From Alphaproteobacteria bacterium (GTDB lineage Bacteria; Pseudomonadota; Alphaproteobacteria; CAAHEQ01; UBA3637), in assembly GCA_045536135.1 (NCBI GenBank), contig JAZSNA010000003.1, forward strand, positions 45,108-109,107: a stretch of DNA of 64,000 nt, in the 5' to 3' direction. A program made the translations under genes and the position numbers. Every line of letters starts with the position of its first letter. Position 1 is the first letter of the stretch. Below are positions 35,021 to 53,338 of the stretch, one piece after another. The notes under the pieces were generated by a model that was not told where the DNA came from, ran no database searches, and saw only the letters and a program-made list of their open reading frames with translations.

Positions 35021-35056
35021 AAAAAAGGTGCGGTTAACTGCCGCACCTTTGTTTTT
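35021..35056. terminator. bidirectional rho-independent terminator
   Basis: aaaggtgcgg-ttaactg-ccgcaccttt is a perfect 10-bp stem flanked by an A-run on the 5' side and a T-run on the 3' side. It sits between convergent genes. Confidence 0.6.
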
Positions 35057-37115
35057 AACCATCTAATTGTTCATTTAACGCTTGCGATATGATTGATATA
35101 ACATAATCAATTTTAGTTACATCATCAATATGTATTCCGACTTCTCCTGTTCCCCATCGTCCTTTGCCTTTATAATCAACGCACATTCCTTCGGGGTCAT
35201 GTATTTTATCAAAATCAATATTGACATTTATGAATAAAGCATTTTTTTGAGGAACGATATCAACAAAATTTGTATCAGCTTTATATGCAATATATAACTT
35301 TGTATATTCTCTTTTGACCGAGGAATCTAAGTTCATTATTTTTTTATCAAGCTCATTATATAAACTTAATGTTTCTTCTGAAAAACTGTCGGAATAAATA
35401 TCAAAAGTGTATTCACTTCTTTTTTTTAATGGTTTTTCTTTATATTGCTGTAGTACTTCTTCTGATACAGAAGGGAATTTCCAAATTTGAATAGCATTTT
35501 TAGATAGAATTTCTGCTCTTTCTTTAATTTTGTCAGCATTCCATTCAGTTTGATTGCGAATGTAAGAATTTAAACGCAAACCAGTATCAGAAAATCCGCC
35601 CTTCATAGTCAATTTATCATTAAACGATCTATCACTCATTTCTGAATTATAGGCAGTTAGTGTTAAATTTCCTATGGTGTGGAGATATTGTGTATGAATT
35701 GCTTGCCAATCTTTACCAAGAGCTTCCTTCCACCCATTACGTAAATTTTCATTTTCAGGCATTACGTGTTCTATTGTAAATGATCCAAGATCAAGTTTTT
35801 CCTTGTTGTCGTATCTTTCAAGTTTGCCAAGTATGTATTGACGGATACGCATGTGATAAATATCTTTTTCTACAAAGCGTTGAGAAAATTCCTCATTTTT
35901 GGGAAACTCTTTATAAGAATCAAGCAAAATGTAATTTGCACATATCGAATTTACGTAATCATTTGCATTAATTTTATTCCTCATTACTGCAAACGTTTTA
36001 TTTAATGAGTTTGTAGGAATTTCACAAATTGCTCGTCTAAACACATAGCTTTCTGTAAAACGTAATATTTTTATAAAATCTTCTCTTGTTATCTTATCAT
36101 TGTTGTAATCATTGTAGACATACATAAGGAATGGATATGCAACTTCCATTCGTAAAAGTCTTATGTCTGCAAAAATTTCATTTAATTCATTATCATTTGT
36201 TTCAGAAAAAATAATGTTTGTATAGCATTTAGCGTAATTATAGATATCGTCACAGTGCTCCATATTTGTTATATTCAGACTTTGATGATATTTCTTAAAT
36301 TCTTCGTAAACATTACCTTCTTTGGGAATTCTTGAAATTTTCATAGTGATGTAGTCTCTGAAAAAACGATCCATTAGTTCCGATTGTTTTTCGTAATTAA
36401 ATAATTTTTCAGTAGGCATCCACTTTTTGTTATATAAATCTGTTTGTTCTTGGTTGCTTAATCCCATTAAAATGTAATTTCGGATTAAATCTGATTGAGA
36501 TAAATCAAGTCCTGTTGAGTTTAAGCTCTCAAAAATAGACTGAGGATTGTCTGAAGACGGGTCGAGAATAATATTAACAATTTGCAGTTTCGCAATTGCA
36601 TTTTCTATTTGTTCTTGTGTTAAATCAGAAGAACTAATTTGTCTTGAGAAAAAGTTATAGGCATCTAATACACGAGAGTTTTTAACATCATCGATTGGAA
36701 CATTTTCTATTAATTTTATAAGAACGTCTTTATCATTGTATGTTAAAGCAAGCTTATATTTATCGTTTTCGTTTTCTGTATCATTTTTTAAGAATTTTCT
36801 TGTGATACTGCTTTTAATTCCCTGTGAGGTTAAATAATCACGAAGTGCAGTCAGTAAAATCGTTAATGTGGTTAAACGCTGTTGACCATCAATAACCATG
36901 AATTTAGATGTACCAGAGATAGATGCACTTTCAATAACACAAACAATAGAACCAATAAAATGGCCTTTTTTATTATGCTTTTCTAGGAAAACAATATCTT
37001 CCCACAATTTACTACATTGTTCTTCTTTCCAACTATACATACGTTGATATAATGGGACAATAAATTGGGTATCGCCATTGAAAATTTTTAGTACGTTTCC
37101 GTCTTCTGCCTTCAT
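35055..37115 (-). CDS. GmrSD-family (DUF262 + DUF1524) type IV modification-dependent restriction endonuclease
   Basis: N-terminal DUF262 signatures PLYQRMYSW and VIDGQQRLTTL, and a C-terminal His-Me/DUF1524-like FTIEHVMPENENL...H..GNLTL. The start is probably the ATG at 37115 (GAGGA RBS). Confidence 0.6.
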   Translation of the reverse strand: MKAEDGNVLKIFNGDTQFIVPLYQRMYSWKEEQCSKLWEDIVFLEKHNKKGHFIGSIVCVIESASISGTSKFMVIDGQQRLTTLTILLTALRDYLTSQGIKSSITRKFLKNDTENENDKYKLALTYNDKDVLIKLIENVPIDDVKNSRVLDAYNFFSRQISSSDLTQEQIENAIAKLQIVNIILDPSSDNPQSIFESLNSTGLDLSQSDLIRNYILMGLSNQEQTDLYNKKWMPTEKLFNYEKQSELMDRFFRDYITMKISRIPKEGNVYEEFKKYHQSLNITNMEHCDDIYNYAKCYTNIIFSETNDNELNEIFADIRLLRMEVAYPFLMYVYNDYNNDKITREDFIKILRFTESYVFRRAICEIPTNSLNKTFAVMRNKINANDYVNSICANYILLDSYKEFPKNEEFSQRFVEKDIYHMRIRQYILGKLERYDNKEKLDLGSFTIEHVMPENENLRNGWKEALGKDWQAIHTQYLHTIGNLTLTAYNSEMSDRSFNDKLTMKGGFSDTGLRLNSYIRNQTEWNADKIKERAEILSKNAIQIWKFPSVSEEVLQQYKEKPLKKRSEYTFDIYSDSFSEETLSLYNELDKKIMNLDSSVKREYTKLYIAYKADTNFVDIVPQKNALFINVNIDFDKIHDPEGMCVDYKGKGRWGTGEVGIHIDDVTKIDYVISIISQALNEQLDG

Positions 37116-37219
37116 GAAAATCCTCACTTTTGATATAAAACTTTTAGTATTCTATGAAATGCCAAAATAAAAAGCAACAAAAATTAAGTTTTTTGTTACT
37201 TCAATGCCACAATTTGACA

Positions 37220-37417
37220 TTATTCGACTTCAAACCATTCCATACAGGTCATCAGCAGGTGGTCGTAATTCCCGGAAGTCGCTTCAGCATAAAACTTATC
37301 TCGTTCTTCCTTAGATAAACCGGCTTGTCTCATAGCACGCAGGCAAATTCCTAAAATGCTGAATGCGTTTCCGTTTTGACCGATTAACTCGACTGTGATA
37401 TCAGGATATTTGGGCAT
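37220..37417 (-). CDS. hypothetical small protein
   Basis: Internal start MPKYPDITVE with a GGAGGAG RBS, about 65 aa. Confidence 0.25.
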   Translation of the reverse strand: MPKYPDITVELIGQNGNAFSILGICLRAMRQAGLSKEERDKFYAEATSGNYDHLLMTCMEWFEVE

Positions 37418-37775
37418 GTTTCTCCTCCAGTTCTTTAAGTTCTTGCATAATAAGTTCTCTTTCTTTGAAACCTTCTTGGCCGATATTAATGATAGCACCG
37501 CCTTCTTCCATAGAAATAAAGCAGACCATTAAATTGATGTCGTCTGCTTTTAGTTTCTCTTCAAATTCAATAATTCTTTCTCGTATTTTTTCTAGCCTGT
37601 CTTCAGCAACTGCCGTATATTTCTTTTTGTATTTTTGCTCGAATGGTTGGTAACCGTAGTAATCTCCGTTAATTTTGAAAACCGCTGTATCCACAAACGC
37701 TCTTTCTTTATCAAGAAGTTGTGCGGCGGTTTTAATTTTTGCCAAATACTGTTCCGATAATGCTTTCTTTTTCAT
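37401..37775 (-). CDS. hypothetical coiled-coil protein
   Basis: 124-aa ORF with a K/E-rich helical sequence. Confidence 0.3.
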   Translation of the reverse strand: MKKKALSEQYLAKIKTAAQLLDKERAFVDTAVFKINGDYYGYQPFEQKYKKKYTAVAEDRLEKIRERIIEFEEKLKADDINLMVCFISMEEGGAIINIGQEGFKERELIMQELKELEEKHAQIS

Positions 37776-37776
37776 T

Positions 37777-38271
37777 TTAGTTCTCCTTCCAAACTGGTTC
37801 TAAATCGCCACTTTCTAAATCGGCAGTGTATCCTTTGAAGTTTTTCAAATCTTCTTGTGAGCTAAGGCTAACCCCACCGATGGACTTGATAACGATACCG
37901 TAGGTTTTTGTTAACTTGGCTAAATCCTTTGCAAAATTCTCATACCTGCGTGTGGCCTTGGTAGGTTTGTAGGCATCCGCATCGACATAGTAATTGAAAT
38001 CCCTATGCAGGCGGTCTTTCGTCATTTTTCTCTTAAAGGCCTTGATAAATGTTTCTAAGTCGCAACTGATTTCTTCGGCGAACTCGTCTGCGGTATGGCG
38101 ACCCCATCGGCTGTCCATTAAGCCCAAAGTCTCTTGAGGGGTAAAACCGGCTTTGGTTTGGATAATCTTAAAGGCGGCATCCCATATCTCTGCCATATTG
38201 TCTTTACCGGTGTAGCCTTTGGCTGTTCCCCAAAATCCCCATTCTTTATTTTGTGTTTGTAATGTTGTCAT
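37777..38271 (-). CDS. hypothetical protein
   Basis: 164 aa with a GGAAAGGA RBS. The 73-bp repeat copy 1 lies immediately upstream. Confidence 0.35.
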   Translation of the reverse strand: MTTLQTQNKEWGFWGTAKGYTGKDNMAEIWDAAFKIIQTKAGFTPQETLGLMDSRWGRHTADEFAEEISCDLETFIKAFKRKMTKDRLHRDFNYYVDADAYKPTKATRRYENFAKDLAKLTKTYGIVIKSIGGVSLSSQEDLKNFKGYTADLESGDLEPVWKEN

Positions 38272-38299
38272 CGTTCATTCCTTTCCATCTTAAGTTTTG

Positions 38300-38372
38300 C
38301 TAGGCTATCCTTGCCTTTGCTTACACTTATAGTATTGCTTGGAATTCGAATTATATCCAGTTAATTCTGCAT
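38300..38372. repeat. 73-bp direct repeat, copy 1 (promoter-region element)
   Basis: About 85 percent identical to 39051-39123. It contains ttgcttggaattcgaa and ccagttaattctgcat, and lies immediately 5' of a minus-strand gene start. Confidence 0.55.
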
Positions 38373-38411
38373 TTATTTTGAAAATAAGTGCTTGTTTTTC
38401 AATAATTTTTA

Positions 38412-38708
38412 TCATTTTATCGTTATTTCAAACCTTGTGGCTTCACTTTCCGGTTTTTTCAGCAAAACGCCATGCTTTTCAAGGACTGTGGCGATTTCAT
38501 CTACATCACCGGACCATGCTAAATAACATTCGCCGTATTTCATTAAAGATTCATTATCCTGTGCGTGGTAAAAAACCACCTTGGCTTTATCCATTGGAAC
38601 GGCCGCCCAAGCACAACTTTGGCAGCATTTGAAGTTCTGTCGTGCGAAATACCCCAGTTTGCGTAACTCTTTAAAGGCGTTGTTTAAGTTTTCTTTATTG
38701 TAAAACAT
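38412..38708 (-). CDS. hypothetical protein
   Basis: 98-aa ORF with a Cys-containing segment CCQSCAW. Confidence 0.3.
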   Translation of the reverse strand: MFYNKENLNNAFKELRKLGYFARQNFKCCQSCAWAAVPMDKAKVVFYHAQDNESLMKYGECYLAWSGDVDEIATVLEKHGVLLKKPESEATRFEITIK

Positions 38709-38718
38709 GGTAACCTCC

Positions 38719-39024
38719 TTATTGTTTAATCCCTAAGTAGCGGCAGTAAGTGGAGCCTGACGGGTCGGCGTAAAGCGTTTTGTGGCCCTTGCAGGTTAAG
38801 GCGATGACCTGTCGCATCCCGTCGTCATCGTAGCCGCCTTTGCCGGTTAAAAACCCGTAATCGGCCATTGGGTTTTCACAGATGGCTTTGTAGGTTTCTT
38901 CGTCTAAGCGGATGGTTTCGGCGACCTTAACTTCGATTGCTTCGTTGCCGTATCTTTTGGTTAACTCCATGACTTCTTCTAAGTCACTCGGTTTGCGTAC
39001 TAAGTAGGTTTTAACTGTTTTCAT
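38719..39024 (-). CDS. hypothetical protein
   Basis: 101 aa with an AAGGAG RBS. Repeat copy 2 lies immediately upstream. Confidence 0.3.
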   Translation of the reverse strand: MKTVKTYLVRKPSDLEEVMELTKRYGNEAIEVKVAETIRLDEETYKAICENPMADYGFLTGKGGYDDDGMRQVIALTCKGHKTLYADPSGSTYCRYLGIKQ

Positions 39025-39050
39025 TTTAAGCTCCTTTTGTTATTGTTTTT

Positions 39051-39123
39051 CTAGGCTTTCTCTGCCTTTCCTTACAATTACATTGTTGCTTGGAATTCGA
39101 AATTTATCCAGTTAATTCTGCAT
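39051..39123. repeat. 73-bp direct repeat, copy 2
   Basis: See copy 1. It lies between the ParB-MTase stop and the next gene start. Confidence 0.55.
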
Positions 39124-40372
39124 CATTTTCGGTTATTTCTGCTTTATTTTCAATAAGTTGGGCTTTGTTGCCGGTATATTCCTCCCAACGCCTGATAATG
39201 ACGTCGCAAAACTTCGGATCTAGCTCAATTAATCGGGCAGAACGACCCGTTTTTTCGCACGCAATCAGCGTCGAGCCGGAGCCTCCGAAACCATCTAAAA
39301 CGATATTCCCGATTTTAGAGCTGTTATTTATGGCTCTTTCCACCAGTTCAACCGGCTTCATTGTTGGGTGTAAGTCGTTTTTGACCGGTTTATTGTATTC
39401 CCAAACGTCTGCCTGATCCCGGTCACCACACCAATGATGCTTTTGTTCGGCGTTCCAACCGTAAAGAATAGGCTCATATTGTCGCTGATAGTCGGCTCGG
39501 CCAAGGGTAAAGGTGTTCTTTTTCCAAATGATGAAGGTCGACCACTTGCCACCGGCATTGATGAACGAGTTATAAAGGGTATGCAGTTCAGATGAACTCA
39601 TGCACACATAGGCGGCACCTTTACAATACATCATCATATTGGATAAGCTATCCGTCAGAAACTGAGCAAAACCTTCGCCAAGGTTATCGTTCATAATCTT
39701 TCGGCCACCGAGTGAACCGGCATGATAGCGAATGCTGTCTTTCATGGTGGAGCCATAGTTCACGTTATAAGGTGGGTCTGTGAAAATCATATCGGCGACT
39801 TCGTCCTGCATTAGCTTTTTAACGTCATCAATCATAGTGGTATCCCCACAAATCAGACGGTGTCTGCCCAGTTGCCAAATATCGCCACGCTTTGTGACAG
39901 CTTCCTCGGGTGCTTCCGGAACTTCGTCATCATCGGTGTTACCGGACGACTTTTCCTCACCGAACAGTTGAATTTCGTTTAGTTCGTCCGGATTAAACCC
40001 AAGCAGGTTCAAATCAAAGTCCAGTTCTGAGAGTTCTTCCATTTCAAGGTGGAGCATCTCTTCATCCCATCCGGCATTTAGAGCAATCTTGTTGTCGGCA
40101 ATGACCAAGGCCCGGCGTTGAGTTTCGGTTAAGTGAGGCAACCTGATGACCGGAACCTCTGTCATACCAAGACGTTGTGCGGCCATAAGGCGACCATGAC
40201 CGGCGATTATAACATCATCATCTCCAATCAGGATTGGGTTTGTGAAACCGAACTCCTTAATGCTTGCCACAATTTGGGCGATTTGTTCATCGTTATGTGT
40301 CCGAGAGTTTCGGGCATATGGGATGAGCTTTTCGGTCGGATATTTTTCATTAAATTCCATGTAATTCTCCAT
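39104..40372 (-). CDS. ParB-like nuclease domain / DNA methyltransferase fusion (N6-A or N4-C MTase)
   Basis: The N-terminal ParB/Srx-like region has an IAGHGR motif. The C-terminus has an IFTDPPYNVNY (DPPY) catalytic motif and an FGGSGST SAM-binding motif. Confidence 0.7.
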   Translation of the reverse strand: MENYMEFNEKYPTEKLIPYARNSRTHNDEQIAQIVASIKEFGFTNPILIGDDDVIIAGHGRLMAAQRLGMTEVPVIRLPHLTETQRRALVIADNKIALNAGWDEEMLHLEMEELSELDFDLNLLGFNPDELNEIQLFGEEKSSGNTDDDEVPEAPEEAVTKRGDIWQLGRHRLICGDTTMIDDVKKLMQDEVADMIFTDPPYNVNYGSTMKDSIRYHAGSLGGRKIMNDNLGEGFAQFLTDSLSNMMMYCKGAAYVCMSSSELHTLYNSFINAGGKWSTFIIWKKNTFTLGRADYQRQYEPILYGWNAEQKHHWCGDRDQADVWEYNKPVKNDLHPTMKPVELVERAINNSSKIGNIVLDGFGGSGSTLIACEKTGRSARLIELDPKFCDVIIRRWEEYTGNKAQLIENKAEITENDAELTG

Positions 40373-40385
40373 AAAAAATACAAAG

Positions 40386-40421
40386 TGACCAGCCAGATTT
40401 TGAAATGACCAGCCAGAAAAA
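40386..40421. repeat. direct repeat TGACCAGCCAGA x2 immediately upstream of the ParB-MTase start (operator-like)
   Basis: The 12-mer occurs at 40386-40397 and 40410-40421, with a degenerate third copy gtgaccagtaaag at about 40468. Confidence 0.45.
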
Positions 40422-40573
40422 ACAAGACACCCTCAAACCCCAGTAAATACAATGGTTTCCGAGTATGGGTGACCAGTAAAGAAAAAGGTGTTTCGCTAGA
40501 AAAATCGGGCGGCTTGCGTCCCCGCATACGAACAGAGCCCAGGAAGGACCCGTTGCCCCGGAGCTGTCCAAGA

Positions 40574-40945
40574 TAGTATCTCGTTAGTATGATACTAACC
40601 ACCCAAACGGGCCAAAACCCGAGAGAGTATGTTGACAGTATGATACTATCCGTCAAATCCGGCTCAAAACCTCGATACCGTCTTGATAGTATGATACTAT
40701 CTGCCTATTGTGACGGGACGGTCGGGCTATGGTTTATCATAGCGAACATATATGCAAATCTATGCGAATATATGTCCGATATATGTGCAATATAGGGCGA
40801 TATTCCGTCAGAATAGCCCATATATATGTCTTATATGTGAGGCAACACCGACATATAATGTTATATGTTCGCATAGTATGATAATATCCGGCAATTCTGC
40901 CCAAAAGTTGGGATTATATGTCGTTAGTATGATATGTTCCGGCAA
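40574..40945. repeat. iteron array: five copies of near-palindromic TAGTATGATACTA, plus ATATGT-rich repeats
   Basis: Copies at 40584-40600, 40636-40650, 40685-40701, 40872-40894 and 40924-40945. An identical 14-mer tcgttagtatgata occurs at 40581 and 40921. Interspersed are atatgt/catatat repeats at 40741-40870. Confidence 0.6.
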
Positions 40946-40955
40946 ATTCGGGGGA

Positions 40956-41957
40956 TTATACCAAACCATTTCGGCATAAACGGGCGAAAACTGGCTTTGT
41001 TAAGTCCAATTCTTCAGCCAGTTCAATCGGGGTTTTGGCCACCGAGATGGCGGTATTTGTCTCGACACCTGACTTGATGGTCTTCACAACTGCACTTGGC
41101 AGTTCGGCTCGGCCAATACAGGAGGAGAGATAGACAAAGCACTCGTCGTTATCTTCCAAATAACGAAGAGCTAAACGGCGAGCATAGATGTTCAGTGTTA
41201 CATCTGCCTTGCTGCCGTCTTTAGTCCAAGGCGAGCCACCACCGATCGGACAGGCAGTAGAGTAAAAATCGCAGGCCAATTTGCGACCGGTAATGCCGCA
41301 GTCTGCGATGGAGGAATGCAATTTGAAACTTCCGGTGCCGTTAACTATGATGTTGTCAGGCTTTTCTCCGAGTGTTTCAATGATAAAATCTGTTAAATCT
41401 TCCGGTTCTTTCATCGGAATGGCAACGACAGCCGTTTCAATTCGGCCGTAGTCGTTTAAGGTTATCTGTGTTTTAATGTCAATGCCAAGGTTTTTGCTTT
41501 GACGAGCCTTAATATAAAGGGCATTGTTAAGGGTACGAGCGAGATAAAGCTCTCGGTTTATCAGGCCTTCACCTTTACAGGCGTAACCGACAAATACACC
41601 TTGGTCGCCCCAACCATTGGCTACTACGCCTTGGTTGATGTCTGCTGACTGCTGACCGATGAGGTTGATGACTTCGATTTTTCGAACATCTATGGCATTT
41701 TGTCCCCACATTTCGGCATATTTTTCATCATAACCGATATCTCTCAGGGCATTTTTAACGAACTCTTTGACATCTGACAGGACAACTTTTCCTTTGATTT
41801 CGCCTCCTAAAACGACGGTGTTGTCTTTGACCATAACCTCAACGGCATATTTGACGTCCGGGTCTTGGGCGATCATGCGGTCAAGGATATAACTGGAAAT
41901 ATAGTCGGCCGTTTTGTCCGGATGTCCGAGCGAAACGAACTCTGCTGTTTTTTTCAT
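40956..41957 (-). CDS. metK: S-adenosylmethionine synthetase (MetK) homolog, compact 333-aa phage-encoded form
   Basis: Aligns by eye along its whole length to E. coli MetK: GHPDKTADYIS..ILD......DP, GGEI, QSADINQGV, GWGDQGVFVGYA, DCGITGRKL, and a GGG loop. Confidence 0.65.
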   Translation of the reverse strand: MKKTAEFVSLGHPDKTADYISSYILDRMIAQDPDVKYAVEVMVKDNTVVLGGEIKGKVVLSDVKEFVKNALRDIGYDEKYAEMWGQNAIDVRKIEVINLIGQQSADINQGVVANGWGDQGVFVGYACKGEGLINRELYLARTLNNALYIKARQSKNLGIDIKTQITLNDYGRIETAVVAIPMKEPEDLTDFIIETLGEKPDNIIVNGTGSFKLHSSIADCGITGRKLACDFYSTACPIGGGSPWTKDGSKADVTLNIYARRLALRYLEDNDECFVYLSSCIGRAELPSAVVKTIKSGVETNTAISVAKTPIELAEELDLTKPVFARLCRNGLV

Positions 41958-42074
41958 CTTTTCTCCTTTTTGCTTATAAAAAAAGGCCCGACAGATGAAC
42001 TGCCGAGCCGGATGCTATATGTAAAAATGTATAAACGGGACGATTACGTAGAACCATCCCGATTATACCCTTAT

Positions 42075-42503
42075 TTATAGCGATTTCTTTTGAAAGTGTC
42101 CACTCATTTTTTGCACTCTGCATTTTTCCTTTCCTTTTAGGTAAAACTCAATCTTTACAATGGCTTTATCATACTTGAGCATTAACCTTGTTCTGCAAAG
42201 GCCAAATTCTCGGCATAAAATTTTCCAAGGAATTCGGTTGGCCCGTTTCCAAACAAGGCGGCGTTCATCAATCTCTAAAAGTGGTATCCATTCTAAAGTG
42301 ACAGTCTCCCATAAACTGACCTGTGCCTGAGTTGGACGAGGCCGAACCGGTCGGCGGTCCATCAGGGCCATTTCTTGCGGCGTGTATATAATCTCGGGCA
42401 TCAAACACCGATATCTGGAAGAACGGACAGGCGGCAACAACCGATCCACATAGGCGGCCGTTTCCAAGTTTGCTTTGATTTCTGCGATGGTCTTAGGTTT
42501 CAT
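42075..42503 (-). CDS. hypothetical protein with putative HTH
   Basis: 142 aa. IPWKILCREFGLCRTRLMLKY resembles an HTH segment. Confidence 0.3.
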   Translation of the reverse strand: MKPKTIAEIKANLETAAYVDRLLPPVRSSRYRCLMPEIIYTPQEMALMDRRPVRPRPTQAQVSLWETVTLEWIPLLEIDERRLVWKRANRIPWKILCREFGLCRTRLMLKYDKAIVKIEFYLKGKEKCRVQKMSGHFQKKSL

Positions 42504-43161
42504 CCGGCACCACCTTTACTTTGCTAAGCACATCATGACAGATGTCCGACATGGTCTCCATCTCTGAGTAGACAAGACCGTTTTCCTTGCAAAACCATTT
42601 CCGGACGGCTTTACGCCAGTCAACGGCAATGTATTTCTTGCCGTTCATCCAACCACGTTCTTCGTTCCACCGAACGAAGGCAACTGGGTCAATTGTATAT
42701 CCACTTCGTTTGCAGTATTCAGCCACTTCTTCAATGCTTGGAGCACCGACATATCCGGACTTATCCACATTTTCCGTCTCTTTATTTTTATTATTTTTAA
42801 TAAAAACATTTTCAGACTCTTCTCCTTTATCCTTCTCCTTATCAGGTTTTTCGTTGGCGGAATTTGGAGGTGGTTCTGAAACCTTAAGGTTTTCTTTTTC
42901 CTTTTTCGGACGACCACCTTTAGAGCCGCCAGCCTTACGTTTTTCGCAGGTTTCAAAATATTTGCGATTGTTTTCATCAATGCCTGCTTGCAAAAAATTA
43001 AAACGGTCTTGAACTTTTTCCGATAAATTTTTTGTAATTTTTCCGTACAGAGCGTATTCACAAAGAGCCTTAATTAAATTCGCACATTCACAATTTGTGA
43101 AATTATACACAGAAGCAAGGAACTCCGCCGGATAAAACACGAATGACGTTTTTCTATCCAT
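42493..43161 (-). CDS. hypothetical protein (possible replication/regulatory function)
   Basis: 222 aa with a low-complexity K/E-rich linker between two globular halves. No firm motif. Confidence 0.25.
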   Translation of the reverse strand: MDRKTSFVFYPAEFLASVYNFTNCECANLIKALCEYALYGKITKNLSEKVQDRFNFLQAGIDENNRKYFETCEKRKAGGSKGGRPKKEKENLKVSEPPPNSANEKPDKEKDKGEESENVFIKNNKNKETENVDKSGYVGAPSIEEVAEYCKRSGYTIDPVAFVRWNEERGWMNGKKYIAVDWRKAVRKWFCKENGLVYSEMETMSDICHDVLSKVKVVPDET

Positions 43162-43399
43162 TTTTAGGTCCTTTCATCGTATCCATTGTTTTGATACGAA
43201 TAATCCCTTGCACCCAACGTAGGGCAAGAACAGCTCGTTGGTAGTCTTTTGTCTTTTCTTTATGCTTCAAGGAATAGTAAATAACTTCGTCCTTTAAGCG
43301 GCTTTCAAACTCTCTCAACTGTTTGAAAGACAGAGATACCATCGCATCTGCAGGAATTTCTTTAATAACTTCAAAAACTGTATCTTTTGGTTTGATCAT
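43154..43399 (-). CDS. hypothetical protein
   Basis: 81 aa with an AAGGAG RBS. A conserved hairpin and a 40-bp repeat lie upstream. Confidence 0.3.
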   Translation of the reverse strand: MIKPKDTVFEVIKEIPADAMVSLSFKQLREFESRLKDEVIYYSLKHKEKTKDYQRAVLALRWVQGIIRIKTMDTMKGPKNG

Positions 43400-43477
43400 T
43401 TTTTCTCCTTTTGTTAATGTTGATACAAAAGGTAAATTCCCGATAAAGTCGAAATGTGCCGAAAAAAAATAATTTTT

Positions 43478-43987
43478 TTATTTTTTTATCTTTCCTCGTT
43501 TTATTCGTTCATCAATATCTTTCAAAACAGTATGTGAAATTCTTAGCTTATTCCTAGCATTTCTAACGGTTTCTCCATTTAAAATAAGGTCTACAAATTG
43601 ATTTTGTTTGTCTGATAAAAATTTTCTTTTTTCTTCAAATTCGATTTTATTTTCAATGTCTGCCAGCGAAAACGTATCTTCAAGTTCAAAACCTTCCTTT
43701 TCAAACATACTATTTAATGACTCTTTATTAAAAAAACCCGACTGCTTTTCTCGCAATCGGGTTCGTCCTAGGTGCATGGCTTTAGATTTAATCGCCATAA
43801 AAAGTGTATCATTTGGAATTTCAGGACCTCGCTTTCTAATAAACTCCAAATAAAATAAAACTAGATCCTGAACGATGTCTTCACGTTCTTGATAATCAAA
43901 AAGTCCTGTTGAGTAAATATAATGCAGATGTATTTTAATATAGGTCACCACATTTTGGGGCAAACCTTTGAATAAATATTGAGCCAT
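43478..43987 (-). CDS. sigma-70 family (ECF-like) sigma factor, phage-encoded
   Basis: A region-2-like segment DIVQDLVLFYLEF and a C-terminal region-4-like HTH (LSDKQNQFVDLILNGETVRNARNKLRISHTVLK). Confidence 0.4.
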   Translation of the reverse strand: MAQYLFKGLPQNVVTYIKIHLHYIYSTGLFDYQEREDIVQDLVLFYLEFIRKRGPEIPNDTLFMAIKSKAMHLGRTRLREKQSGFFNKESLNSMFEKEGFELEDTFSLADIENKIEFEEKRKFLSDKQNQFVDLILNGETVRNARNKLRISHTVLKDIDERIKRGKIKK

Positions 43988-44143
43988 TTTGAAACCTTTT
44001 GTTAATGATTAATACAAAAGGCCATATATTCATAAGTCGTGGTTTGTTCAATAAATCGTTGAAAGAAACGAAAAAAAATATACCTATGTGTATATGAAGG
44101 ACATACATAGGTATAATTAGACTTTAGTTTTGGATTTTTGGAC

Positions 44144-45850
44144 TCATTTAAATCCAAGTTCACGACGTTGTTCTGCCCAAGAATATGGGAAACGCTCTCT
44201 TAATAATCTTCTTAATGTGAGTAGTTTAGGCTGACGACCTTCTAAAATAGCCATAATAATATCGGGTGCAAGGGTTGTAAGACGAATGATTTGACCAAGA
44301 TAACTATGATTGCATCGTTCGTGTTTAGATAACTCTGCCAACGACCATTTTCTTGTTTCCATTTTCTCTTTTAAATAAAATGCTTGAGTTACTGCATTAA
44401 ATAGTTTTTCATCTCGAGCAGGAAGTTCTTTTGTTGGATTTGTTGGCTCTACAATTTTAACACTTCCCCGTTTACGTCCAAAAGTTACTTCATATTTTAG
44501 AATTAGGCTTTTTTTACAGTAATTAGGATTTTCTCCTATTAGTTGATTTTCATAAATCTGAGCCCCATAAGGTTTTAACTTTATTTCTATATAATCTTTA
44601 TGCAAAATAACTTTTTCTAAAATTTCTGCGATAAAATCATGAACGGTTGCCGGTTCAAAATACTGAAAAACTTCTCCAATATCATTGACTAAATCAAAAG
44701 CTGTACTGGCAGTGTAGTTCGGATTGACTTCTTCTAATTGACGAGCCAGTTCTTTTATTATTTCTGGTGACTTAAATATCTGCTGTATTTTACCGATAAC
44801 AAATGTATCTAGCTCTCCAGCTGGAACACTTCCTATTTTACACGGTTTATATTTAACGCCTTCTTTTACACCTTTTAGAGCAGAATAGTATTCGTAATAT
44901 TTATTGCCATGTTTACTGCGTGTGGGAATCATTGTACCACAACACTCACATTCAAGCAGACCTTTTAATAGGCTATGCTTTATAGAACGAGACGGTCTAA
45001 AGGCATTCTTCAAATTATCGTGCTTTAAATTTATTGTTCGATCCCATAATTCTTGAGTAATAATAGCTTCGTGCTGTCCTTCATACAATTCACCTTTATA
45101 AGGCATTTTTCCAAGATAAATAGGATTGTTTAAAATGTTATTTATCATCGAGTGATTAAACTCATCATTATTCTTTAATGTTCCATCCTTATTTCGTCGT
45201 TCTTTAGGTTTATAACCTCGATTGTTTACATTATGCGTTGTAGCCGCTTCCGACCTTGTACGGATATAATCTTCAAATATAAATCGAATTATTTCAGCTT
45301 CAGAAGGCTCGATAATCAGTTTCTTGTTTTTAAGGGTATATCCCAAAGGGACAGAACCTCCAGTCCACATTCCTTTTTTTCGACTTGCGGCGATTTTATC
45401 ACGTACACGTTCTGCACCCAGTTCTCTTTCAAATTGAGCAAAGGATAATAAAATATTTAGAGTCAACTTACCCATGGAATCGCAAGTATTAAAATGTTGT
45501 GTGACAGATACAAATGAACAGTTATGCTTTTCAAAAGTTTTAACAAGTTGTGCAAAATCAAGAAGTGAACGGGTAAGTCGGTCTATTTTATAAACAACAA
45601 TCATATCTACTTTTCCAGCCTCAACATCTTCAATAAGTCGTTTTAAAGCAGGGCGTTTTAAACTGCCACCACTAAAACCACCATCGTCATAATGTTCTGG
45701 GATTGTTATCCAACCTTGGTGTTTCAGACTTTTAACATAGTTCTCACCGGCTTCTCGTTGAGCTTCTAAGGTATTAAATTCTTTTTCAAGTCCTTCATCT
45801 GTTGACTTTCTTGTGTAAATTGCACATCGTATCTGTTTTTGTGTTTCCAT
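44144..45850 (-). CDS. large serine recombinase (phage integrase)
   Basis: N-terminal resolvase domain with catalytic Ser (CAIYTRKSTDEG...) and GKVDMIVVYKIDRLTRS, followed by a long recombinase domain with a Cys-x2-Cys zinc ribbon. Start set at METQKQ, which has an AAGGAG RBS. Confidence 0.85.
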   Translation of the reverse strand: METQKQIRCAIYTRKSTDEGLEKEFNTLEAQREAGENYVKSLKHQGWITIPEHYDDGGFSGGSLKRPALKRLIEDVEAGKVDMIVVYKIDRLTRSLLDFAQLVKTFEKHNCSFVSVTQHFNTCDSMGKLTLNILLSFAQFERELGAERVRDKIAASRKKGMWTGGSVPLGYTLKNKKLIIEPSEAEIIRFIFEDYIRTRSEAATTHNVNNRGYKPKERRNKDGTLKNNDEFNHSMINNILNNPIYLGKMPYKGELYEGQHEAIITQELWDRTINLKHDNLKNAFRPSRSIKHSLLKGLLECECCGTMIPTRSKHGNKYYEYYSALKGVKEGVKYKPCKIGSVPAGELDTFVIGKIQQIFKSPEIIKELARQLEEVNPNYTASTAFDLVNDIGEVFQYFEPATVHDFIAEILEKVILHKDYIEIKLKPYGAQIYENQLIGENPNYCKKSLILKYEVTFGRKRGSVKIVEPTNPTKELPARDEKLFNAVTQAFYLKEKMETRKWSLAELSKHERCNHSYLGQIIRLTTLAPDIIMAILEGRQPKLLTLRRLLRERFPYSWAEQRRELGFK

Positions 45851-45851
45851 T

Positions 45852-46262
45852 TTATTCTCCTTGTTTATCAATACCAAAAAAATATCTGCCAGATATTTTT
45901 CTACCGGTTATTTTTTTTGCAATTGCTGATAGGCTTGGGTACTTCATCCCATTGTATTCAAAGCCATCATTTAGAATAATGACCGAATGTTCAACCTGTT
46001 GGTATTCACGAATAATTCGTGTACCGGTTGGCGGAAGGTTCTTTCTTCCATCCGGAGGGACATACATCTGTGCAATAAGTTTTTGTTGTGCCTTTGGTAA
46101 ACCTCCGTAAGCAAGCTCTTGTATTCGATAAGCTATTCGGGAAACAAAAAACTCTTTATTTTGAGAGATCGTTGGTTCTGTAAAATATTCTTTCCACATT
46201 TCTTGTAGCTCTGGTAAAGATTTATTCTTTAATAAAGCTATTTCAACTACGACCGATTTCAT
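45852..46262 (-). CDS. DUF2924-like protein (conserved partner gene upstream of large serine recombinases)
   Basis: 136 aa. YPSLSAIAKKITGRKISGRYFFG matches my recollection of the DUF2924 hallmark. It abuts the recombinase start. Confidence 0.4.
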   Translation of the reverse strand: MKSVVVEIALLKNKSLPELQEMWKEYFTEPTISQNKEFFVSRIAYRIQELAYGGLPKAQQKLIAQMYVPPDGRKNLPPTGTRIIREYQQVEHSVIILNDGFEYNGMKYPSLSAIAKKITGRKISGRYFFGIDKQGE

Positions 46263-46420
46263 TGTGTACCTCCATTATTTTCGTTTTCGTGATCACAATG
46301 AATGCTTGGATTTTTTATTTTATCCAGTCTTTTCTGAATAATTTCACCACTTTCTTGCATTTCCAAATATCTTAGGATATCGGGCATAATTATTTTAATT
46401 AATTTTTCTACTTGGGTCAT
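46259..46420 (-). CDS. hypothetical small protein
   Basis: Internal Met start (MTQVEKLIK...) about 53 aa. A 40-bp repeat lies 20 bp upstream. Confidence 0.25.
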   Translation of the reverse strand: MTQVEKLIKIIMPDILRYLEMQESGEIIQKRLDKIKNPSIHCDHENENNGGTQ

Positions 46421-46786
46421 TTTTGACCTCCTTTCGAAATGGTAAATTCCCAGAGAAGTCAAAATGTGCCGAAAAAAATTAAAAAAATCTCGTTGTCGGT
46501 ATATCGTATTGAAAAACAACAAAAAAATATTTATAAGGCTAGTTGTCAGTGAATAAAAACAAACCTCTCTTGAGTGGATGGGAAAATTGGACATCATATA
46601 ATTTTATGGAAATTTATAAAAATCAATGTGTTTTTGACCAAGTTGCCAAAAGAAAATGACCACTTGCTCAAGGTATACTTTTACGGCAAAGGTATATGTA
46701 TAAGTTGATTTGATAGCAGAAGACAGCTTGATTTATGAAAATGTGAGAGGAGAGGATGTTGGCTGTTATTGGGCTTTCGCAGGGTA

Positions 46787-46832: not shown

Positions 46833-46909
46833 TGGTCGGGGTGACACGACTTGAACGTGCGACACCTTGCTCCCAAAGCAAGTACTCTACCAGGCTGAGC
46901 TACACCCCG
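46833..46909 (-). tRNA. tRNA-Pro (anticodon UGG)
   Basis: 77-nt cloverleaf on the minus strand: cggggtgtagctcagcctggtagagtacttgctTTGGGAgcaag...ggttcaag...caccccgacca. CCA is encoded. Confidence 0.85.
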
Positions 46910-46962: not shown

Positions 46963-47823
46963 TTATCTTGTATGCAAGTTATTTAATTTGAATGGGTTTT
47001 CGTGATATTTCACAATATTTTTGGGATGTATATTTTGATAAAAATTTTCAGCCTCTTTAAAATTGCGACCGAGTTGTTCGACAGAGTGAGCATCATCGCT
47101 GATAATAATCGGAATATTTTGTTGTTTTATGTTGGATAAAATCCGATAACTGGGATACGGCTCATAGCAATAACTTTTATAATATCCGGTATTAATTTCG
47201 CAAGTCGTCATACAATCTCGCAAGACCTGAACTGTCTGTTCTTCATCATCAATAAATTGTTCGTCACCGCCCAAGCCCACTTTTTTGGGCAAATCCAAAT
47301 GAGCAACGATATCAAAAAAACCGCTTTTGAGGGCCTGTCGAACATTTGTGTAATATTGATGTATCAACATATTTTGTTCCTTTTTTTCCATACGTTTGAC
47401 ATCGTGAAAATTTAATAAATGATTCTTGTGCACCATAAAATGACAAGAACCAATCAAATAATCCGGTTTTAAAATTTCAACAGCTTTTTGAAAAGATTCA
47501 ATCCAAGCCATAGATCCGAAAAAATCCACTTCCATTCCTTTTAATATTTTTATATCGGTTTGTTCCCGTACCCGATCTATTTCTTCATAGTGGTTTTTAA
47601 ATTTTTCAATCGCTTGATTAAAATTTTCGGAAAATATATTTTCATATCCGCCACGCACGGCAAATGAATACATTTTTTGAGAAGTAATGGTCGGATAAAC
47701 AATAAAATGGTTAGAAAATCCGAGTTGTCCCCAATTCAATTTTTCAGCCTGCTCCACCATTTGAGCAACGGTATTTTTGCCATCAAATCCGCGAGTATGT
47801 GTGTGATATGAAAAATCTTGCAT
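46963..47823 (-). CDS. PHP-family phosphoesterase (histidinol-phosphatase-like)
   Basis: N-terminal Y-H-T-H-T His cluster and further His/Asp metal ligands typical of PHP domains. Confidence 0.5.
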   Translation of the reverse strand: MQDFSYHTHTRGFDGKNTVAQMVEQAEKLNWGQLGFSNHFIVYPTITSQKMYSFAVRGGYENIFSENFNQAIEKFKNHYEEIDRVREQTDIKILKGMEVDFFGSMAWIESFQKAVEILKPDYLIGSCHFMVHKNHLLNFHDVKRMEKKEQNMLIHQYYTNVRQALKSGFFDIVAHLDLPKKVGLGGDEQFIDDEEQTVQVLRDCMTTCEINTGYYKSYCYEPYPSYRILSNIKQQNIPIIISDDAHSVEQLGRNFKEAENFYQNIHPKNIVKYHENPFKLNNLHTR

Positions 47824-48177
47824 TATTTCCCCCTTTCAATCACAGTTTTTTACACTACCATAAAAAGGGGGAAAAGTCAATCATTCCAATTCCATTGCTT
47901 TTGTTTTAAATTCGTCTTTTTCTTTTGAAGATAAAAACATTGGAACAATTGTCAATATTTTTAAAATATATGCTAATATCTTTCCCATAATTATACCGCC
48001 TTTGCACCGTTGAAATTTAAAGCTAAAACATTTAAGAATGATTTGATTTTTTTCATAAAATCATCATCTTTGGGTGTCGGGGTTAAGGCACATATTGCAC
48101 TGGACAAGGCAATAACCGAAGAAATTACAATTAAAATTTGTTCCATATTATTAATAATAAAATCCATTTTATACCTC

Positions 48178-48468
48178 CTAAATTATGTTTTTAAAAAATA
48201 TCTCGCTTAAAGTTAAACAAATCGAGCTAAATGCAGCGGCTAAACCAATTGAAACAACCGTCTTTATAGGTGCTATTTCATTACGGGTTATAAAATTGGC
48301 CTCCATTTTTTGAATAATCGTATTGGAAAATTTAAGAAAATCGTTATGAAGCCTATTCACTTGACGATTACTGTTGTTTAAACCTTTTTTGAGTTCAACA
48401 ATCTGATTTTCCAACGCGGAAAATTGTGCCATCAATTTCCCGACCTCCAATTCAAAATCAGTCATCAT
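48178..48468 (-). CDS. hypothetical protein with C-terminal TM helix
   Basis: 96 aa, coiled coil plus a hydrophobic C-terminus. Follows TerL. Confidence 0.25.
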   Translation of the reverse strand: MMTDFELEVGKLMAQFSALENQIVELKKGLNNSNRQVNRLHNDFLKFSNTIIQKMEANFITRNEIAPIKTVVSIGLAAAFSSICLTLSEIFFKNII

Positions 48469-48778
48469 TTCCTCCTTTGTAAAAAATAAAGCTTCCGACT
48501 TGATCTATTGGGATTAAACCAATAGACCAATCCGGAAACTCATCTGTTTTATGAAATCTGATTTTTCTTTTTTCCTTTTTTCCCATCAGATATTTTTGAG
48601 CAATCCGATAACACATTTGATATCGTTGATCATTCGGAATCTCTGATATATCATCATCAACATCAACCAAATCGACAATCGCTTCCGCTTCCGATAAGGA
48701 CGGTTGATATTTATATATCGCCAAAGCTAATTCTTTTATTTGCATCTCCTTCTCTGCCCCTTTTTCATATTTTGACAT
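48458..48778 (-). CDS. hypothetical protein
   Basis: 106-aa ORF overlapping the TerL stop. Confidence 0.25.
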   Translation of the reverse strand: MSKYEKGAEKEMQIKELALAIYKYQPSLSEAEAIVDLVDVDDDISEIPNDQRYQMCYRIAQKYLMGKKEKRKIRFHKTDEFPDWSIGLIPIDQVGSFIFYKGGNDD

Positions 48779-50213: not shown

Positions 50214-50487
50214 TTATTTCATCCTTTAAATCTTTTGTGGCTATGTGTGCTTTTTTTATCAATTCCAGCAAATTATCATTTTCATCCGTTTCGGCAAAAG
50301 ACATTAATTTCAAGCACATCATTAAATGTTGTAAAGTTGATTTACAGGCCATTTGATAAGATTGAATATCTTTTATATTTTCCGGATACGGTAAGTTGAT
50401 TAAATCATCATATTGTTTCAATACTTGCTTGATTTTTGAATAAATATCATCACGACGAATTAATGTTGAATTCATTATTTCAACCAA
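50197..50487 (-). CDS. hypothetical protein
   Basis: 96 aa. It occupies the TerS/small-gene position upstream of TerL. Confidence 0.2.
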   Translation of the reverse strand: MVEIMNSTLIRRDDIYSKIKQVLKQYDDLINLPYPENIKDIQSYQMACKSTLQHLMMCLKLMSFAETDENDNLLELIKKAHIATKDLKDEINDEFD

Positions 50488-50804
50488 CCCATCGATTTTA
50501 ACAGGTTCTTTTGATAATTCTTTTTATCTTTTTTTATCTTTAATTTTTTTTCCTGTATTTCCGTATCATTTTTGCGATTATATTCACGATCCATTTCATC
50601 TTGAACCGCCAGCGCCGAGCCAGACAAAGGGCTTATTCCCGCCGAGCCCAATTTAGCACGATAACCTGCTTTTTCGCCTTTTAATAAGTTTTGATTATTT
50701 TTTATTGTTTCTTGTAATGATTTTATTTCTTCTTTTGAATTATCGGAAAATAAATGATTAACAATTAATTTTCCGGTTGAATTTAAACTTGCCATTTTAT
50801 TCAC
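50475..50804 (-). CDS. hypothetical protein
   Basis: 109-aa ORF, K-rich. Confidence 0.2.
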   Translation of the reverse strand: MNKMASLNSTGKLIVNHLFSDNSKEEIKSLQETIKNNQNLLKGEKAGYRAKLGSAGISPLSGSALAVQDEMDREYNRKNDTEIQEKKLKIKKDKKNYQKNLLKSMGWLK

Positions 50805-53249: not shown

Positions 53250-53260
53250 AAATAACTCCT

Positions 53261-53300
53261 GAATAAAAAAAGGGGGTAAGGCAGAACCCTGCCTCACCCC
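53261..53300 (-). terminator. rho-independent terminator after the capsid gene
   Basis: On the minus strand: ggggtgaggcag-ggttc-tgccttaccccc followed by TTTTTTT. Confidence 0.45.
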
Positions 53301-53338
53301 GCAAAAAAGGAAAGAAAATAAAAAAATCAGATTATCGG

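What the first reader, a model, noticed from the sequence alone, without database searches (positions are those of the whole stretch)
40380..40955. About 580-bp non-coding region with a five-copy near-palindromic iteron array and AT-rich ATATGT repeats (candidate origin or operator cluster)
Five copies of (T)AGTATGATA(C/A/T)T, with an identical 14-mer at two of them, are spread over about 370 bp. Between them are ATATGT/CATATAT repeats. Next to the MTase start there are two TGACCAGCCAGA direct repeats. The architecture (iterons plus an AT-rich unwinding-type segment) resembles phage or plasmid origins of replication. It could alternatively be a multi-operator control region for the early leftward operon (MTase and the small genes). 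No canonical O/P-like replication genes were recognised, so this may define an unusual replication module.
Basis: seen in the sequence. Interest (0 to 1): 0.5.

Follow-up and report, generated by a model that had tools for sequence, protein, structure and literature searches.

The report
Orphan palindrome array in prophage cargo slot
The repeats are real, but they form a lineage-specific non-coding insert in a swap-in/swap-out cargo slot of a gut alphaproteobacterial prophage; they are most likely a docking array for an unidentified DNA-binding protein, not the phage's own replication origin or early operator.

Summary
Observation confirmed. Five copies of AGTATGATA (0.49 expected) form 13-17 bp dyads spaced 51, 51, 187 and 51 bp. 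RTATGT half-site-like repeats lie between them, and two TGACCAGCCAGA repeats sit next to the methylase gene.

Interpretation largely not supported. In more than 30 related prophages with the same flanking genes (SAM synthetase, ParB-N/methylase), the methylase-proximal ~185 bp is conserved. It holds an invariant ~70-nt element, an intrinsic terminator and 3-8 CTGGTCR direct repeats. The ~398 bp holding all palindromes and the ATATGT repeats (40558-40955) is absent from most relatives.

That position is a cargo hot spot. It is empty in about ten relatives and holds RhuM-Fic, radical-SAM, SocA or unknown genes in others. Only near-identical phages carry the array, in forms giving intergenic lengths of 345, 583-586, 835 and 1168 bp. 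The longer forms add other inverted-repeat arrays.

The cores are conserved (85-97%) while unit flanks have drifted (47%), so the dyads are constrained. No ORF, Rfam family, Rep, ParA or HTH-ParB partner, DnaA or IHF box, or marked AT-richness was found. The array does not co-vary with the DUF6291/DUF6362 proteins.

Best reading: a stand-alone protein-docking (iteron/centromere-like, possibly titrating) accessory array. The binding protein and the function are unproven.

The parts
40558..40955 (-). Lineage-specific non-coding insert (~398 bp) that fills the cargo slot between the metK stop codon and the conserved leader. It contains all five palindromes and the RTATGT repeats.
   Evidence: It is absent from L002, L003 and other relatives that share both flanking genes. 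It is present only in relatives with at least 94% MetK identity, giving total metK-to-methylase gaps of 345, 583-586, 835 and 1168 bp. No conserved ORF, no Rfam hit, and no BLAST match in the plasmid or phage collections.
40583..40599 (.). Dyad site 1: GTTAGTAT-G-ATACTAAC, a perfect 8-1-8 palindrome with its 13-bp core at 40585-40597.
40634..40650 (.). Dyad site 2: GACAGTAT-G-ATACTATC. It has one asymmetric base in the window and is perfect in L011, L013 and L015.
40685..40701 (.). Dyad site 3: GATAGTAT-G-ATACTATC, a perfect 8-1-8 palindrome.
40872..40888 (.). Dyad site 4: CATAGTAT-G-ATAATATC. The core has one mismatch in the window and is perfect in L011, L012, L013 and L015.
40923..40939 (.). 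Dyad site 5: GTTAGTAT-G-ATATGTTC. One arm is degenerate here. The site is nearly perfect in L017, L345 and L012, where further arrays lie beyond it.
40572..40580 (.). Extra half-site GATAGTATC, 11 bp from dyad 1. Each unit has such a half-site-like element (AGTATGT or TATATGT) 11-13 bp to one side of its dyad.
   Evidence: (family D2).
40739..40870 (.). Segment between the two dyad clusters, packed with RTATGT/ACATAT half-site-like repeats (partly at 11-bp steps) and containing a second 8-1-8 dyad, ACATATAA-T-GTTATATGT. GC is 0.35.
   Evidence: (D4, I2, I3, I12). It is deleted in L014 by a crossover between units 4 and 2.
40478..40557 (-). Nearly invariant ~70-80-nt element of the family-wide leader: CGGGTCCTTCC...CGTATGCGGGGRYGCAAGCCGC...TCTAGCGAAAC. 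Its function is unknown.
   Evidence: It is conserved in more than 30 relatives regardless of slot content. RNAalifold found no covariation. No Rfam match.
40417..40473 (-). Hairpin followed by a T-run: an intrinsic terminator on the coding strand, inside the leader.
   Evidence: RNAfold finds a hairpin with a different stem sequence followed by a T-run at the same place in WIN, L002, L003, L004, L005, L016 and L026.
40386..40476 (-). Three direct CTGGTCA repeats, read as TGACCAG on the plus strand at 40386, 40406 and 40470. One lies at the base of the terminator and two lie between the terminator and the methylase RBS.
   Evidence: Relatives have 3-8 copies, and the variant GGTTGTCA replaces them in L004, L040 and L041.
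40956..41957 (-). Phage SAM synthetase (MetK-like, 333 aa), the upstream flank of the slot.
   Evidence: Pfam S-AdoMet_synt N, M and C domains.
39104..40372 (-). ParB_N plus N6/N4 DNA methyltransferase fusion (422 aa), the downstream flank. The ParB part is the N-terminal domain only, with no HTH.

Best explanation
The flagged gap holds two unrelated things.

(1) Leader (40373-40557). This is the conserved leader of the ParB_N-methylase gene. It comprises an invariant ~70-nt element, an intrinsic terminator and direct CTGGTCR repeats. It is the family's real control region for that gene.

(2) Insert (40558-40955). This is an accessory non-coding insert sitting in a cargo hot spot. It consists of five phased 13-17 bp dyad-symmetric sites in diverged 51-bp tandem units, about ten half-site-like RTATGT repeats, and one extra half-site 11 bp from each dyad.

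I infer that the insert acts at the DNA level as a multi-site docking platform for a dimeric sequence-specific DNA-binding protein that is not encoded next to it. The 51-bp spacing is about five helical turns. That would let neighbouring dimers interact and let the two clusters (three sites and two sites, 187 bp apart) bridge across the half-site-rich middle.

The likely consequence is sequestration or organisation of that protein, as with iteron or centromere 'sinks' (P1 incA, F sopC/incD, E. coli datA). It is not likely to be initiation of this phage's own replication or control of its early operon.

Shown: the anatomy, the accessory status, the plasticity, the constraint on the cores, and the absence of a cis partner. 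Inferred: protein binding and titration.
For: - Statistical reality of the sites.
- Unit structure and spacing.
- Core versus flank identity within the array is 0.85-0.97 against 0.47 in WIN, L011 and L017. This indicates selection on the dyad itself.
- A compensatory symmetric change occurs between site 1 (GTTAG...CTAAC) and site 3 (GATAG...CTATC).
- Accessory status: the insert is absent from about ten relatives with identical flanks, and the same position holds RhuM-Fic, radical-SAM/SPASM, SocA-Panacea or unknown two-gene cargo in others.
- Plasticity among near-identical phages: 3 or 5 dyads, with or without extra arrays. L345, whose methylase is 100% identical to the window's, carries the 1168-bp form.
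- The extra arrays in L012, L017 and L345 are also inverted repeats and share the half-site (A/T)GTATC(T). TATC-type pentamers are 5-25 times enriched across the island.
- The insert is non-coding and matches no known RNA family.
- Overall RNA folding shows no preference for the transcribed strand.
- There is no partner gene in cis. The ParB part lacks an HTH, no ParA or Rep was found among the neighbours, and the array does not track DUF6291/DUF6362 (L014: 56% and 64% identity with the same array).
Against: - No binding protein is identified, and no second copy of the dyad exists in the 64-kb window or in 1.17 Mb of related loci. An autoregulated partner gene was therefore not found.
- Divergence between phages is too low to show purifying selection across genomes: 5 of 65 core positions vary against 37 of 328 non-core positions, p = 0.5.
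- The units are co-oriented with transcription and lie between the metK stop and a terminator, so they are probably transcribed. Three hairpin units in the longer forms fold better on the coding strand.
- 51 bp is 4.86 turns at 10.5 bp per turn, so same-face phasing is only approximate.
- Titration is an inference by analogy, with no direct support.
Confidence: 0.4

Rival explanations
1. A non-coding RNA element. The units are hairpins in the 3' UTR of the metK transcript (metK stop, then array, then leader terminator). They could act as an mRNA stabiliser or as a decoy or sponge RNA, in the way pseudo-ToxI repeats of phages mimic a type III antitoxin.
For: - The array lies between the metK stop and a conserved intrinsic terminator, and another terminator precedes metK. 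It should therefore be transcribed with metK.
- All units are co-oriented.
- Hairpin units U1, U3 and U5 of the longer forms are 3.5-7.8 kcal/mol more stable on the coding strand because of G-U pairs.
- Both strands fold better than shuffles, z = -3.5 and -4.5.
- The slot holds TA- or defence-type cargo in relatives.
- Precedent for phage-borne antitoxin-mimic repeats: title and abstract of PMC5449768 and PMC3401426.
Against: - Over the whole island there is no strand preference: L017 -197 (coding) against -210 kcal/mol, L012 -99.4 against -99.1, and the window array -119 against -128.
- An 8-1-8 dyad gives at best a 7-bp A/U-rich stem with a triloop.
- Units are only 47% identical outside the core, unlike type III antitoxin repeats.
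- There is no toxin gene.
- No Rfam family matches.
Confidence: 0.2
2. A secondary or accessory origin of replication (iterons plus an easily melted segment), fired by an initiator supplied in trans by the host, a co-resident element, or the phage's DUF6291 protein.
For: - Two clusters of repeated dyads flank a segment rich in direct half-site repeats, as in lambda ori, SaPI ori or plasmid oriV (the comparison is from general knowledge).
- DUF6291 has a weak match to a 'primosomal protein' PHROG, E = 0.0046.
Against: - Absent from relatives that share the replication-candidate genes and both flanks.
- L014 keeps the dyads but has lost the middle segment.
- The middle segment has GC 0.35, only the 15th percentile for the prophage. 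No DnaA, IHF or CtrA consensus is present.
- There is no Rep gene, and the array does not co-vary with DUF6291/DUF6362.
Confidence: 0.12
3. A functionless or decaying minisatellite: the remnant of the regulatory region of a lost cargo cassette, or a locally expanding tandem repeat that persists through linkage.
For: - Length varies rapidly by unit-unit recombination and deletion among near-identical phages.
- It sits in a slot with high turnover.
- Two of the five sites are degenerate in the window.
- Between-phage data cannot demonstrate constraint.
Against: - The 13-bp cores stay at 85-97% identity while the rest of the unit fell to 47%.
- Symmetric compensatory differences occur between sites.
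- The island is kept in prophages from at least six different species-level MAGs.
Confidence: 0.18
4. One reading: the phage's own primary replication origin, or the multi-operator region controlling the early leftward operon.
For: Architecture only. The methylase-proximal CTGGTCR repeats are indeed conserved and regulatory-looking.
Against:
- The dyad is found nowhere near the early promoters or genes at 43.1-44.2 kb.
- See also the evidence against the accessory-origin reading.
Confidence: 0.05

Closest known systems
Centromere and incompatibility repeat arrays of plasmids and phage-plasmids (F sopC/incD: 12 tandem 43-bp units each with a 7-bp inverted repeat; P1 incA iteron cluster). Comparison from general knowledge; iteron titration and handcuffing background: PMC6090056 and PMC3401445.
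   Same: Tandem ~50-bp units, each carrying one short dyad. The core is conserved. Copy number is variable. The array is non-coding and acts, or would act, by loading or titrating a specific DNA-binding protein.
   Different: There is no SopA/SopB, ParA/ParB or Rep gene, and the neighbouring ParB-domain protein has no HTH. The element is an integrated prophage with a serine integrase. It has only five units, with flanks at 47% identity and a 187-bp interruption. There is no sequence similarity to any plasmid record.
Iteron-type origins (lambda ori with four dyad-like iterons plus an AT-rich tract; SaPI ori with two iteron sets flanking an AT-rich region). General knowledge.
   Same: Two clusters of repeated sites flank a lower-GC segment that carries phased short repeats.
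   Different: It is not conserved among relatives. There is no adjacent or co-varying initiator. The middle segment is only mildly AT-rich and is dispensable in L014. There are no DnaA or IHF boxes.
Phage operators of the lambda type (17-bp sites with dyad symmetry about a central base pair). General knowledge.
   Same: The sites have 8-1-8 geometry, the size expected for an HTH dimer.
   Different: Spacing is 51 bp instead of about 24 bp. No repressor gene or promoter is organised around the sites. The site is absent from the early promoter region.
REP/BIME, MIRU and MITE-type intergenic palindromic repeats. General knowledge.
   Same: Palindromic units pile up between co-directional genes downstream of a stop codon, copy number is variable, and several unit types sit side by side.
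   Different: The units are not dispersed. There are no further copies in the 64-kb window or in 1.17 Mb of related loci. There are no terminal inverted repeats or target duplications.
Type III antitoxin repeats and phage pseudo-ToxI (PMC3401426, PMC5449768; titles and abstracts seen).
   Same: A non-coding tandem repeat array followed by a terminator, and phage-borne.
   Different: The units are not near-identical. There is no endoribonuclease toxin gene. The downstream gene and terminator are present in relatives without any array.

Membership tests
Iteron-type replication origin | Several copies of one initiator-binding repeat | tested here: met
   Five dyads plus about ten half-site-like repeats.
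Iteron-type replication origin | Adjacent markedly A+T-rich unwinding element, often with DnaA or IHF sites | tested here: not met
   GC is 0.35 against a prophage mean of 0.415, and 489 of 3167 windows are lower. No DnaA, IHF or CtrA consensus.
Iteron-type replication origin | Cognate initiator encoded in cis, or co-varying with the iterons | tested here: not met
   No Rep family among the neighbours. L014 has the same dyads but only 56% and 64% identical DUF6291 and DUF6362.
Iteron-type replication origin | Conserved in position among relatives that share the replication and flanking genes | tested here: not met
   Absent from L002, L003, L019-L023, L025, L040 and L041, and replaced by protein-coding cargo in many others.
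Iteron-type replication origin | Replication initiates there | not testable with these tools
   This needs marker-frequency sequencing or 2D gels after induction.
Partition centromere (sopC/parS/parC type) | Tandem or clustered repeats with dyad symmetry | tested here: met
   51-bp units, each with a 13-17 bp dyad.
Partition centromere (sopC/parS/parC type) | Adjacent NTPase plus centromere-binding protein genes | tested here: not met
   No ParA. The ParB_N-methylase aligns to ParB/Noc only over the N-terminal domain (residues 10-117), then has an acidic linker and a methylase. The same protein is present in relatives that lack the array.
Partition centromere (sopC/parS/parC type) | Extrachromosomal maintenance of the element | tested here: not met
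   The element is a chromosomally integrated prophage with a large serine recombinase, next to tRNA-Pro.
Phage immunity or early operator cluster | Sites overlap the promoters of the regulated early genes, with the repressor gene adjacent | tested here: not met
   The dyad is absent elsewhere in the prophage. There is no regulator next to it. Only weak promoter-like matches were found, 4 against 2.5 expected.
Phage immunity or early operator cluster | Conserved among relatives with the same regulated genes | tested here: not met
   Not met for the palindromes. Met for the separate CTGGTCR repeats of the leader.
Dispersed palindromic repeats (REP/BIME/MITE) | Many dispersed copies in the genome | tested here: not met
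   Copies occur only in this slot, across 64 kb plus 1.17 Mb of related loci. Complete host genomes were not scanned.
Type III TA antitoxin or pseudo-antitoxin RNA | Near-identical tandem repeats followed by a terminator and an endoribonuclease toxin gene | tested here: not met
   Unit flanks are 47% identical. The downstream gene is a methylase that is also present without the array.
Known structured RNA families (Rfam 15) | Match to a covariance model | tested here: not met
   Nothing in 40373-40958 at E <= 1. Only chance-level hits in the long form, L017.

The most novel reading that the evidence does not exclude
The island is a stand-alone, non-coding defence or competition cargo. It would be one to three arrays of decoy binding sites, of different specificities in the 1.17-kb form, carried in a prophage defence hot spot. 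The arrays would soak up an essential DNA-binding protein (initiator, partition protein, repressor/activator or small terminase) of competing plasmids or phages in the same gut Alphaproteobacteria. This would be incompatibility-by-titration used as an exclusion device without any protein-coding gene.
Probability: 0.12. Interest if true: 0.8.

Novelty: new variant of a known kind. Interest (0 to 1): 0.4.

Why it matters
Taken as an origin it would have defined a replication module, but that reading does not hold. What remains is a constrained, plastic, protein-less repeat island. It occupies a slot that otherwise carries toxin-antitoxin-like and defence-like genes, in prophages of uncultured gut Alphaproteobacteria.

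If the island works by binding or titrating a protein, or as a decoy RNA, it would be an example of purely cis-acting or non-coding accessory cargo in phage hot spots. Gene-centred defence-island surveys cannot see that class.

The comparison also gives three directly testable products:
- a precisely delimited cargo hot spot between the phage metK and methylase genes;
- a highly conserved leader (70-nt element, terminator, CTGGTCR repeats) that likely controls read-through into the methylase operon;
- a set of natural length variants of the island.

Tried and rejected
- Homology search for the array. Megablast and blastn against the phage and plasmid collections found nothing.
- IMG/VR scan for two cores 51 bp apart. 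It found only the contig of L001, plus chance hits and one unrelated tandem repeat, L007.
- The single metagenome scan for two 11-mer cores 20-50 nt apart. I first read the many 22-bp tandem 'iterons' with the same core as a shared Rep family. I rejected that after looking at context. The 55/66-bp class lies next to TnsA (Tn7-like ends). The 22-bp class lies in Bacteroidales-type elements (HU-HIG, BT4734/VapE). Others are eukaryote-like satellites. This is convergence or chance in a very large database, not homology. Our own array was not among the rows returned.
- Single-site scan of IMG/VR for the 15-mer dyad. It returned more than 120 scattered single hits, at chance level. In L281 the same sequence is part of a repeated promoter-like motif, which is unrelated.
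- Coding potential. Rejected.
- Strand asymmetry of folding as a test of RNA against DNA. Inconclusive.
- Between-phage constraint test. Underpowered.
- Consensus RNA structure of the conserved leader. No covariation in the 70-nt element.
- SahR, MetJ or Fur-type regulator boxes as the identity of the dyad. The idea came from memory, and the paper's text gives no consensus that could be compared. Not pursued.
- DUF6291, DUF6362 and small neighbouring proteins as the binder. There were no PDB or NCBIfam matches, and the proteins do not co-vary with the array.
- The 49-aa ORF at 41974-42123. It overlaps a terminator and looks spurious.
- Exact-protein look-ups. MetK gave only a 2.3-kb contig. 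The methylase gave L345, which was useful.

Full report
**What is there.** The flagged stretch is the 583-bp gap 40373-40955 between two minus-strand genes. One is a 333-aa SAM synthetase (40956-41957). The other is a 422-aa fusion of a ParB N-terminal domain with an N6/N4 DNA methyltransferase (39104-40372).

Both genes belong to a siphovirus-type prophage whose genes all read leftward:
- large serine recombinase plus DUF2924, next to tRNA-Pro;
- a sigma-like protein and an 81-aa protein;
- DUF6291, DUF6362, metK, [gap], methylase;
- small genes and GmrSD;
- small and large terminase, portal, protease, capsid, tail and endolysin.

**Check of the observation.** AGTATGATA occurs five times in the gap and once elsewhere, against 0.49 expected. 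The core is the dyad TAGTAT-G-ATACTA, which extends to 8-1-8 17-mers. The copies sit in diverged 51-bp tandem units with spacings of 51, 51, 187 and 51 bp. Each unit also has a half-site-like element 11-13 bp from its dyad.

ATATGT/ACATAT is about 56-fold enriched between the two dyad clusters. TGACCAGCCAGA occurs twice and nowhere else in the window. This array is the only such 9-mer repeat cluster in the 64 kb.

The segment called 'AT-rich' is only mildly so, at GC 0.35. That is the 15th percentile for the prophage.

**Comparative anatomy.** A MetK-based search found 6 IMG/VR loci and 80 loci in species-representative genomes. Nearly all of the latter are MAGs of uncultured gut Alphaproteobacteria from humans and ruminants.

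In these relatives the methylase-proximal ~185 bp (window 40373-40557) is conserved. Reading along the coding strand it holds:
- a nearly invariant ~70-nt element (CGGGTCCTTCC...CGTATGCGGGGRYGCAAGCCGC...TCTAGCGAAAC);
- a CTGGTCR site;
- a hairpin with a different stem sequence in each lineage, followed by a T-run, that is, an intrinsic terminator;
- two to seven further direct CTGGTCR repeats (GGTTGTCA in one lineage);
- the RBS.

Another strong terminator lies just upstream of metK. The early genes thus appear to be punctuated by terminators.

The distance from the metK stop to the leader motif varies widely:
- 27-39 bp in L002, L003, L019-L023, L025, L040 and L041, which means the slot is empty;
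- 0.9-7 kb of co-oriented protein-coding cargo in many others, including RhuM-Fic, radical SAM/SPASM, SocA-Panacea and unknown two-gene modules.

The ~398 bp at 40558-40955, with all palindromes and ATATGT repeats, is what fills this slot in the window. It is found only in phages with at least 94% MetK identity.

Within that group the island is plastic:
- L014 has three dyads and lacks the middle segment, after a crossover between units 4 and 2.
- L012 has a further ~250 bp of ~44-bp inverted-repeat units of another sequence type.
- L017 and L345 have a further ~585 bp of such units, including two paralogous cassettes with compensatory arm changes.
- L345 has a methylase 100% identical to the window's, and also has GmrSD, yet it carries the 1168-bp form. 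The window's form is therefore a recent derivative.

**What the insert is not.**
- It is non-coding.
- It matches no Rfam family and no annotated phage or plasmid record.
- It is not a dispersed repeat.
- It has no DnaA, IHF or CtrA consensus.
- It is not accompanied by a Rep, a ParA or an HTH-bearing ParB. The ParB part of the neighbour aligns to ParB/Noc only over the N-terminal domain.
L014 shares only the block metK-array-leader-methylase (95-97% identity), with 56% and 64% identity for those two proteins.

**Evidence of function.** Within the array, the 13-bp cores are 85-97% identical pairwise, while the rest of the 51-bp units is 47% identical. Sites 1 and 3 differ by a symmetric compensatory change. 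This argues that the dyad itself is maintained.

All array types in the island share the half-site (A/T)GTATC(T), and TATC-type pentamers are 5-25-fold enriched. Between-phage divergence is too small for an independent test.

Folding does not favour the transcribed strand overall. Three hairpin units of the longer forms do favour it. An RNA role therefore cannot be excluded.

**Conclusion.**
- Most likely (about 0.4): an accessory DNA-level docking array for a dimeric sequence-specific protein encoded elsewhere. It would work like iteron or centromere 'sinks'.
- Rivals: a 3'-UTR or decoy RNA (0.2), a decaying minisatellite or cargo remnant (0.18), an accessory origin (0.12), and the phage's own origin or early operator (0.05).

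A caution arises from the metagenome scan. The same 11-mer core occurs in Tn7-like ends, in Bacteroidales iteron arrays and in satellites. This is convergence and should not be read as homology.

Noticed in passing
window 40558-40955 and the equivalent position in L002-L090 and L332-L345: The junction between the phage metK stop and the methylase leader is a cargo hot spot. It is empty in about ten relatives. Elsewhere it carries RhuM-Fic, radical SAM/SPASM, SocA-Panacea plus a partner, ankyrin-repeat genes or unknown two-gene modules of 1-7 kb, all co-oriented.
   Followed up: partly
window 40478-40557 (minus strand): A nearly invariant ~70-nt element (CGGGTCCTTCC...CGTATGCGGGGRYGCAAGCCGC...TCTAGCGAAAC) lies directly upstream of a terminator, between a SAM synthetase gene and a SAM-dependent methylase gene. 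The layout is riboswitch-, attenuator- or put-like, or it could be a 3'-UTR sRNA. No Rfam match and no covariation were detected.
   Followed up: partly
window 41985-42009 (minus strand): A strong intrinsic terminator (10-bp stem, 7 G-C pairs, T7 run) lies about 25 nt upstream of the metK start. metK plus the cargo slot is therefore bracketed by two terminators, and there is no room for a promoter. This suggests control of the early operon by antitermination.
   Followed up: no
window 43996-44021 and 43407-43432 (minus strand): The inverted repeat CCTTTTGTAT(N5)ATTAACAAAAGG occurs twice. Each copy ends at the RBS of an early gene (the sigma-like 169-aa protein and the 81-aa protein). It could be an operator or an RBS-sequestering hairpin.
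   Followed up: no
window 35055-37127: A GmrSD-type restriction endonuclease (GmrSD_N, GmrSD_C, DUF5655) is inserted between the small early genes and the small terminase. It is present in the window and L345 but absent from L001, L011 and the other close relatives. This marks a second variable slot.
   Followed up: partly
window 42767-42830: An AT-rich stretch (GC ~0.30, strong GC skew) with two 25-nt direct repeats 39 bp apart encodes the Lys/Glu-rich interdomain linker of the DUF6291 protein. It is a lambda-O-like place for the family's real origin. This is speculative.
   Followed up: no
window 46963-61176: A second, podovirus-like prophage or remnant lies immediately beyond tRNA-Pro (46833-46909). 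It encodes a PHP-domain protein, a Terminase_6 large terminase, nozzle, tail tubular, major head and head-tail adaptor proteins, and a peptidase/endolysin.
   Followed up: partly
window 43180-46600 compared with L001 and L011: There is a mosaic boundary. From 37220 to 43161 the window is 93-100% identical (protein level) to L001, L011 and L013. The 81-aa, sigma-like, integrase and DUF2924 genes are only 35-59% identical to those loci, whereas L015 matches the window there at 99-100%.
   Followed up: partly
L094 2263-2460, L160 4339-4560 and about 25 other metagenome loci: Repeats with the same AGTATGATACT core, spaced 55, 66 or 67 bp, lie next to TnsA genes. They are probably TnsB-binding sites of Tn7-like transposon ends. 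They are unrelated to the window's array.
   Followed up: partly
L097 12481-12535, L135 5252-5372, L163 3476-3574, L105 1845-2031: 22-bp tandem iterons (3-9 copies) with the core TAGTATCATACT occur in gut metagenome contigs, next to HU-HIG, Abi_2 or BT4734/VapE-like genes. They are probably origins of Bacteroidales mobile elements.
   Followed up: partly
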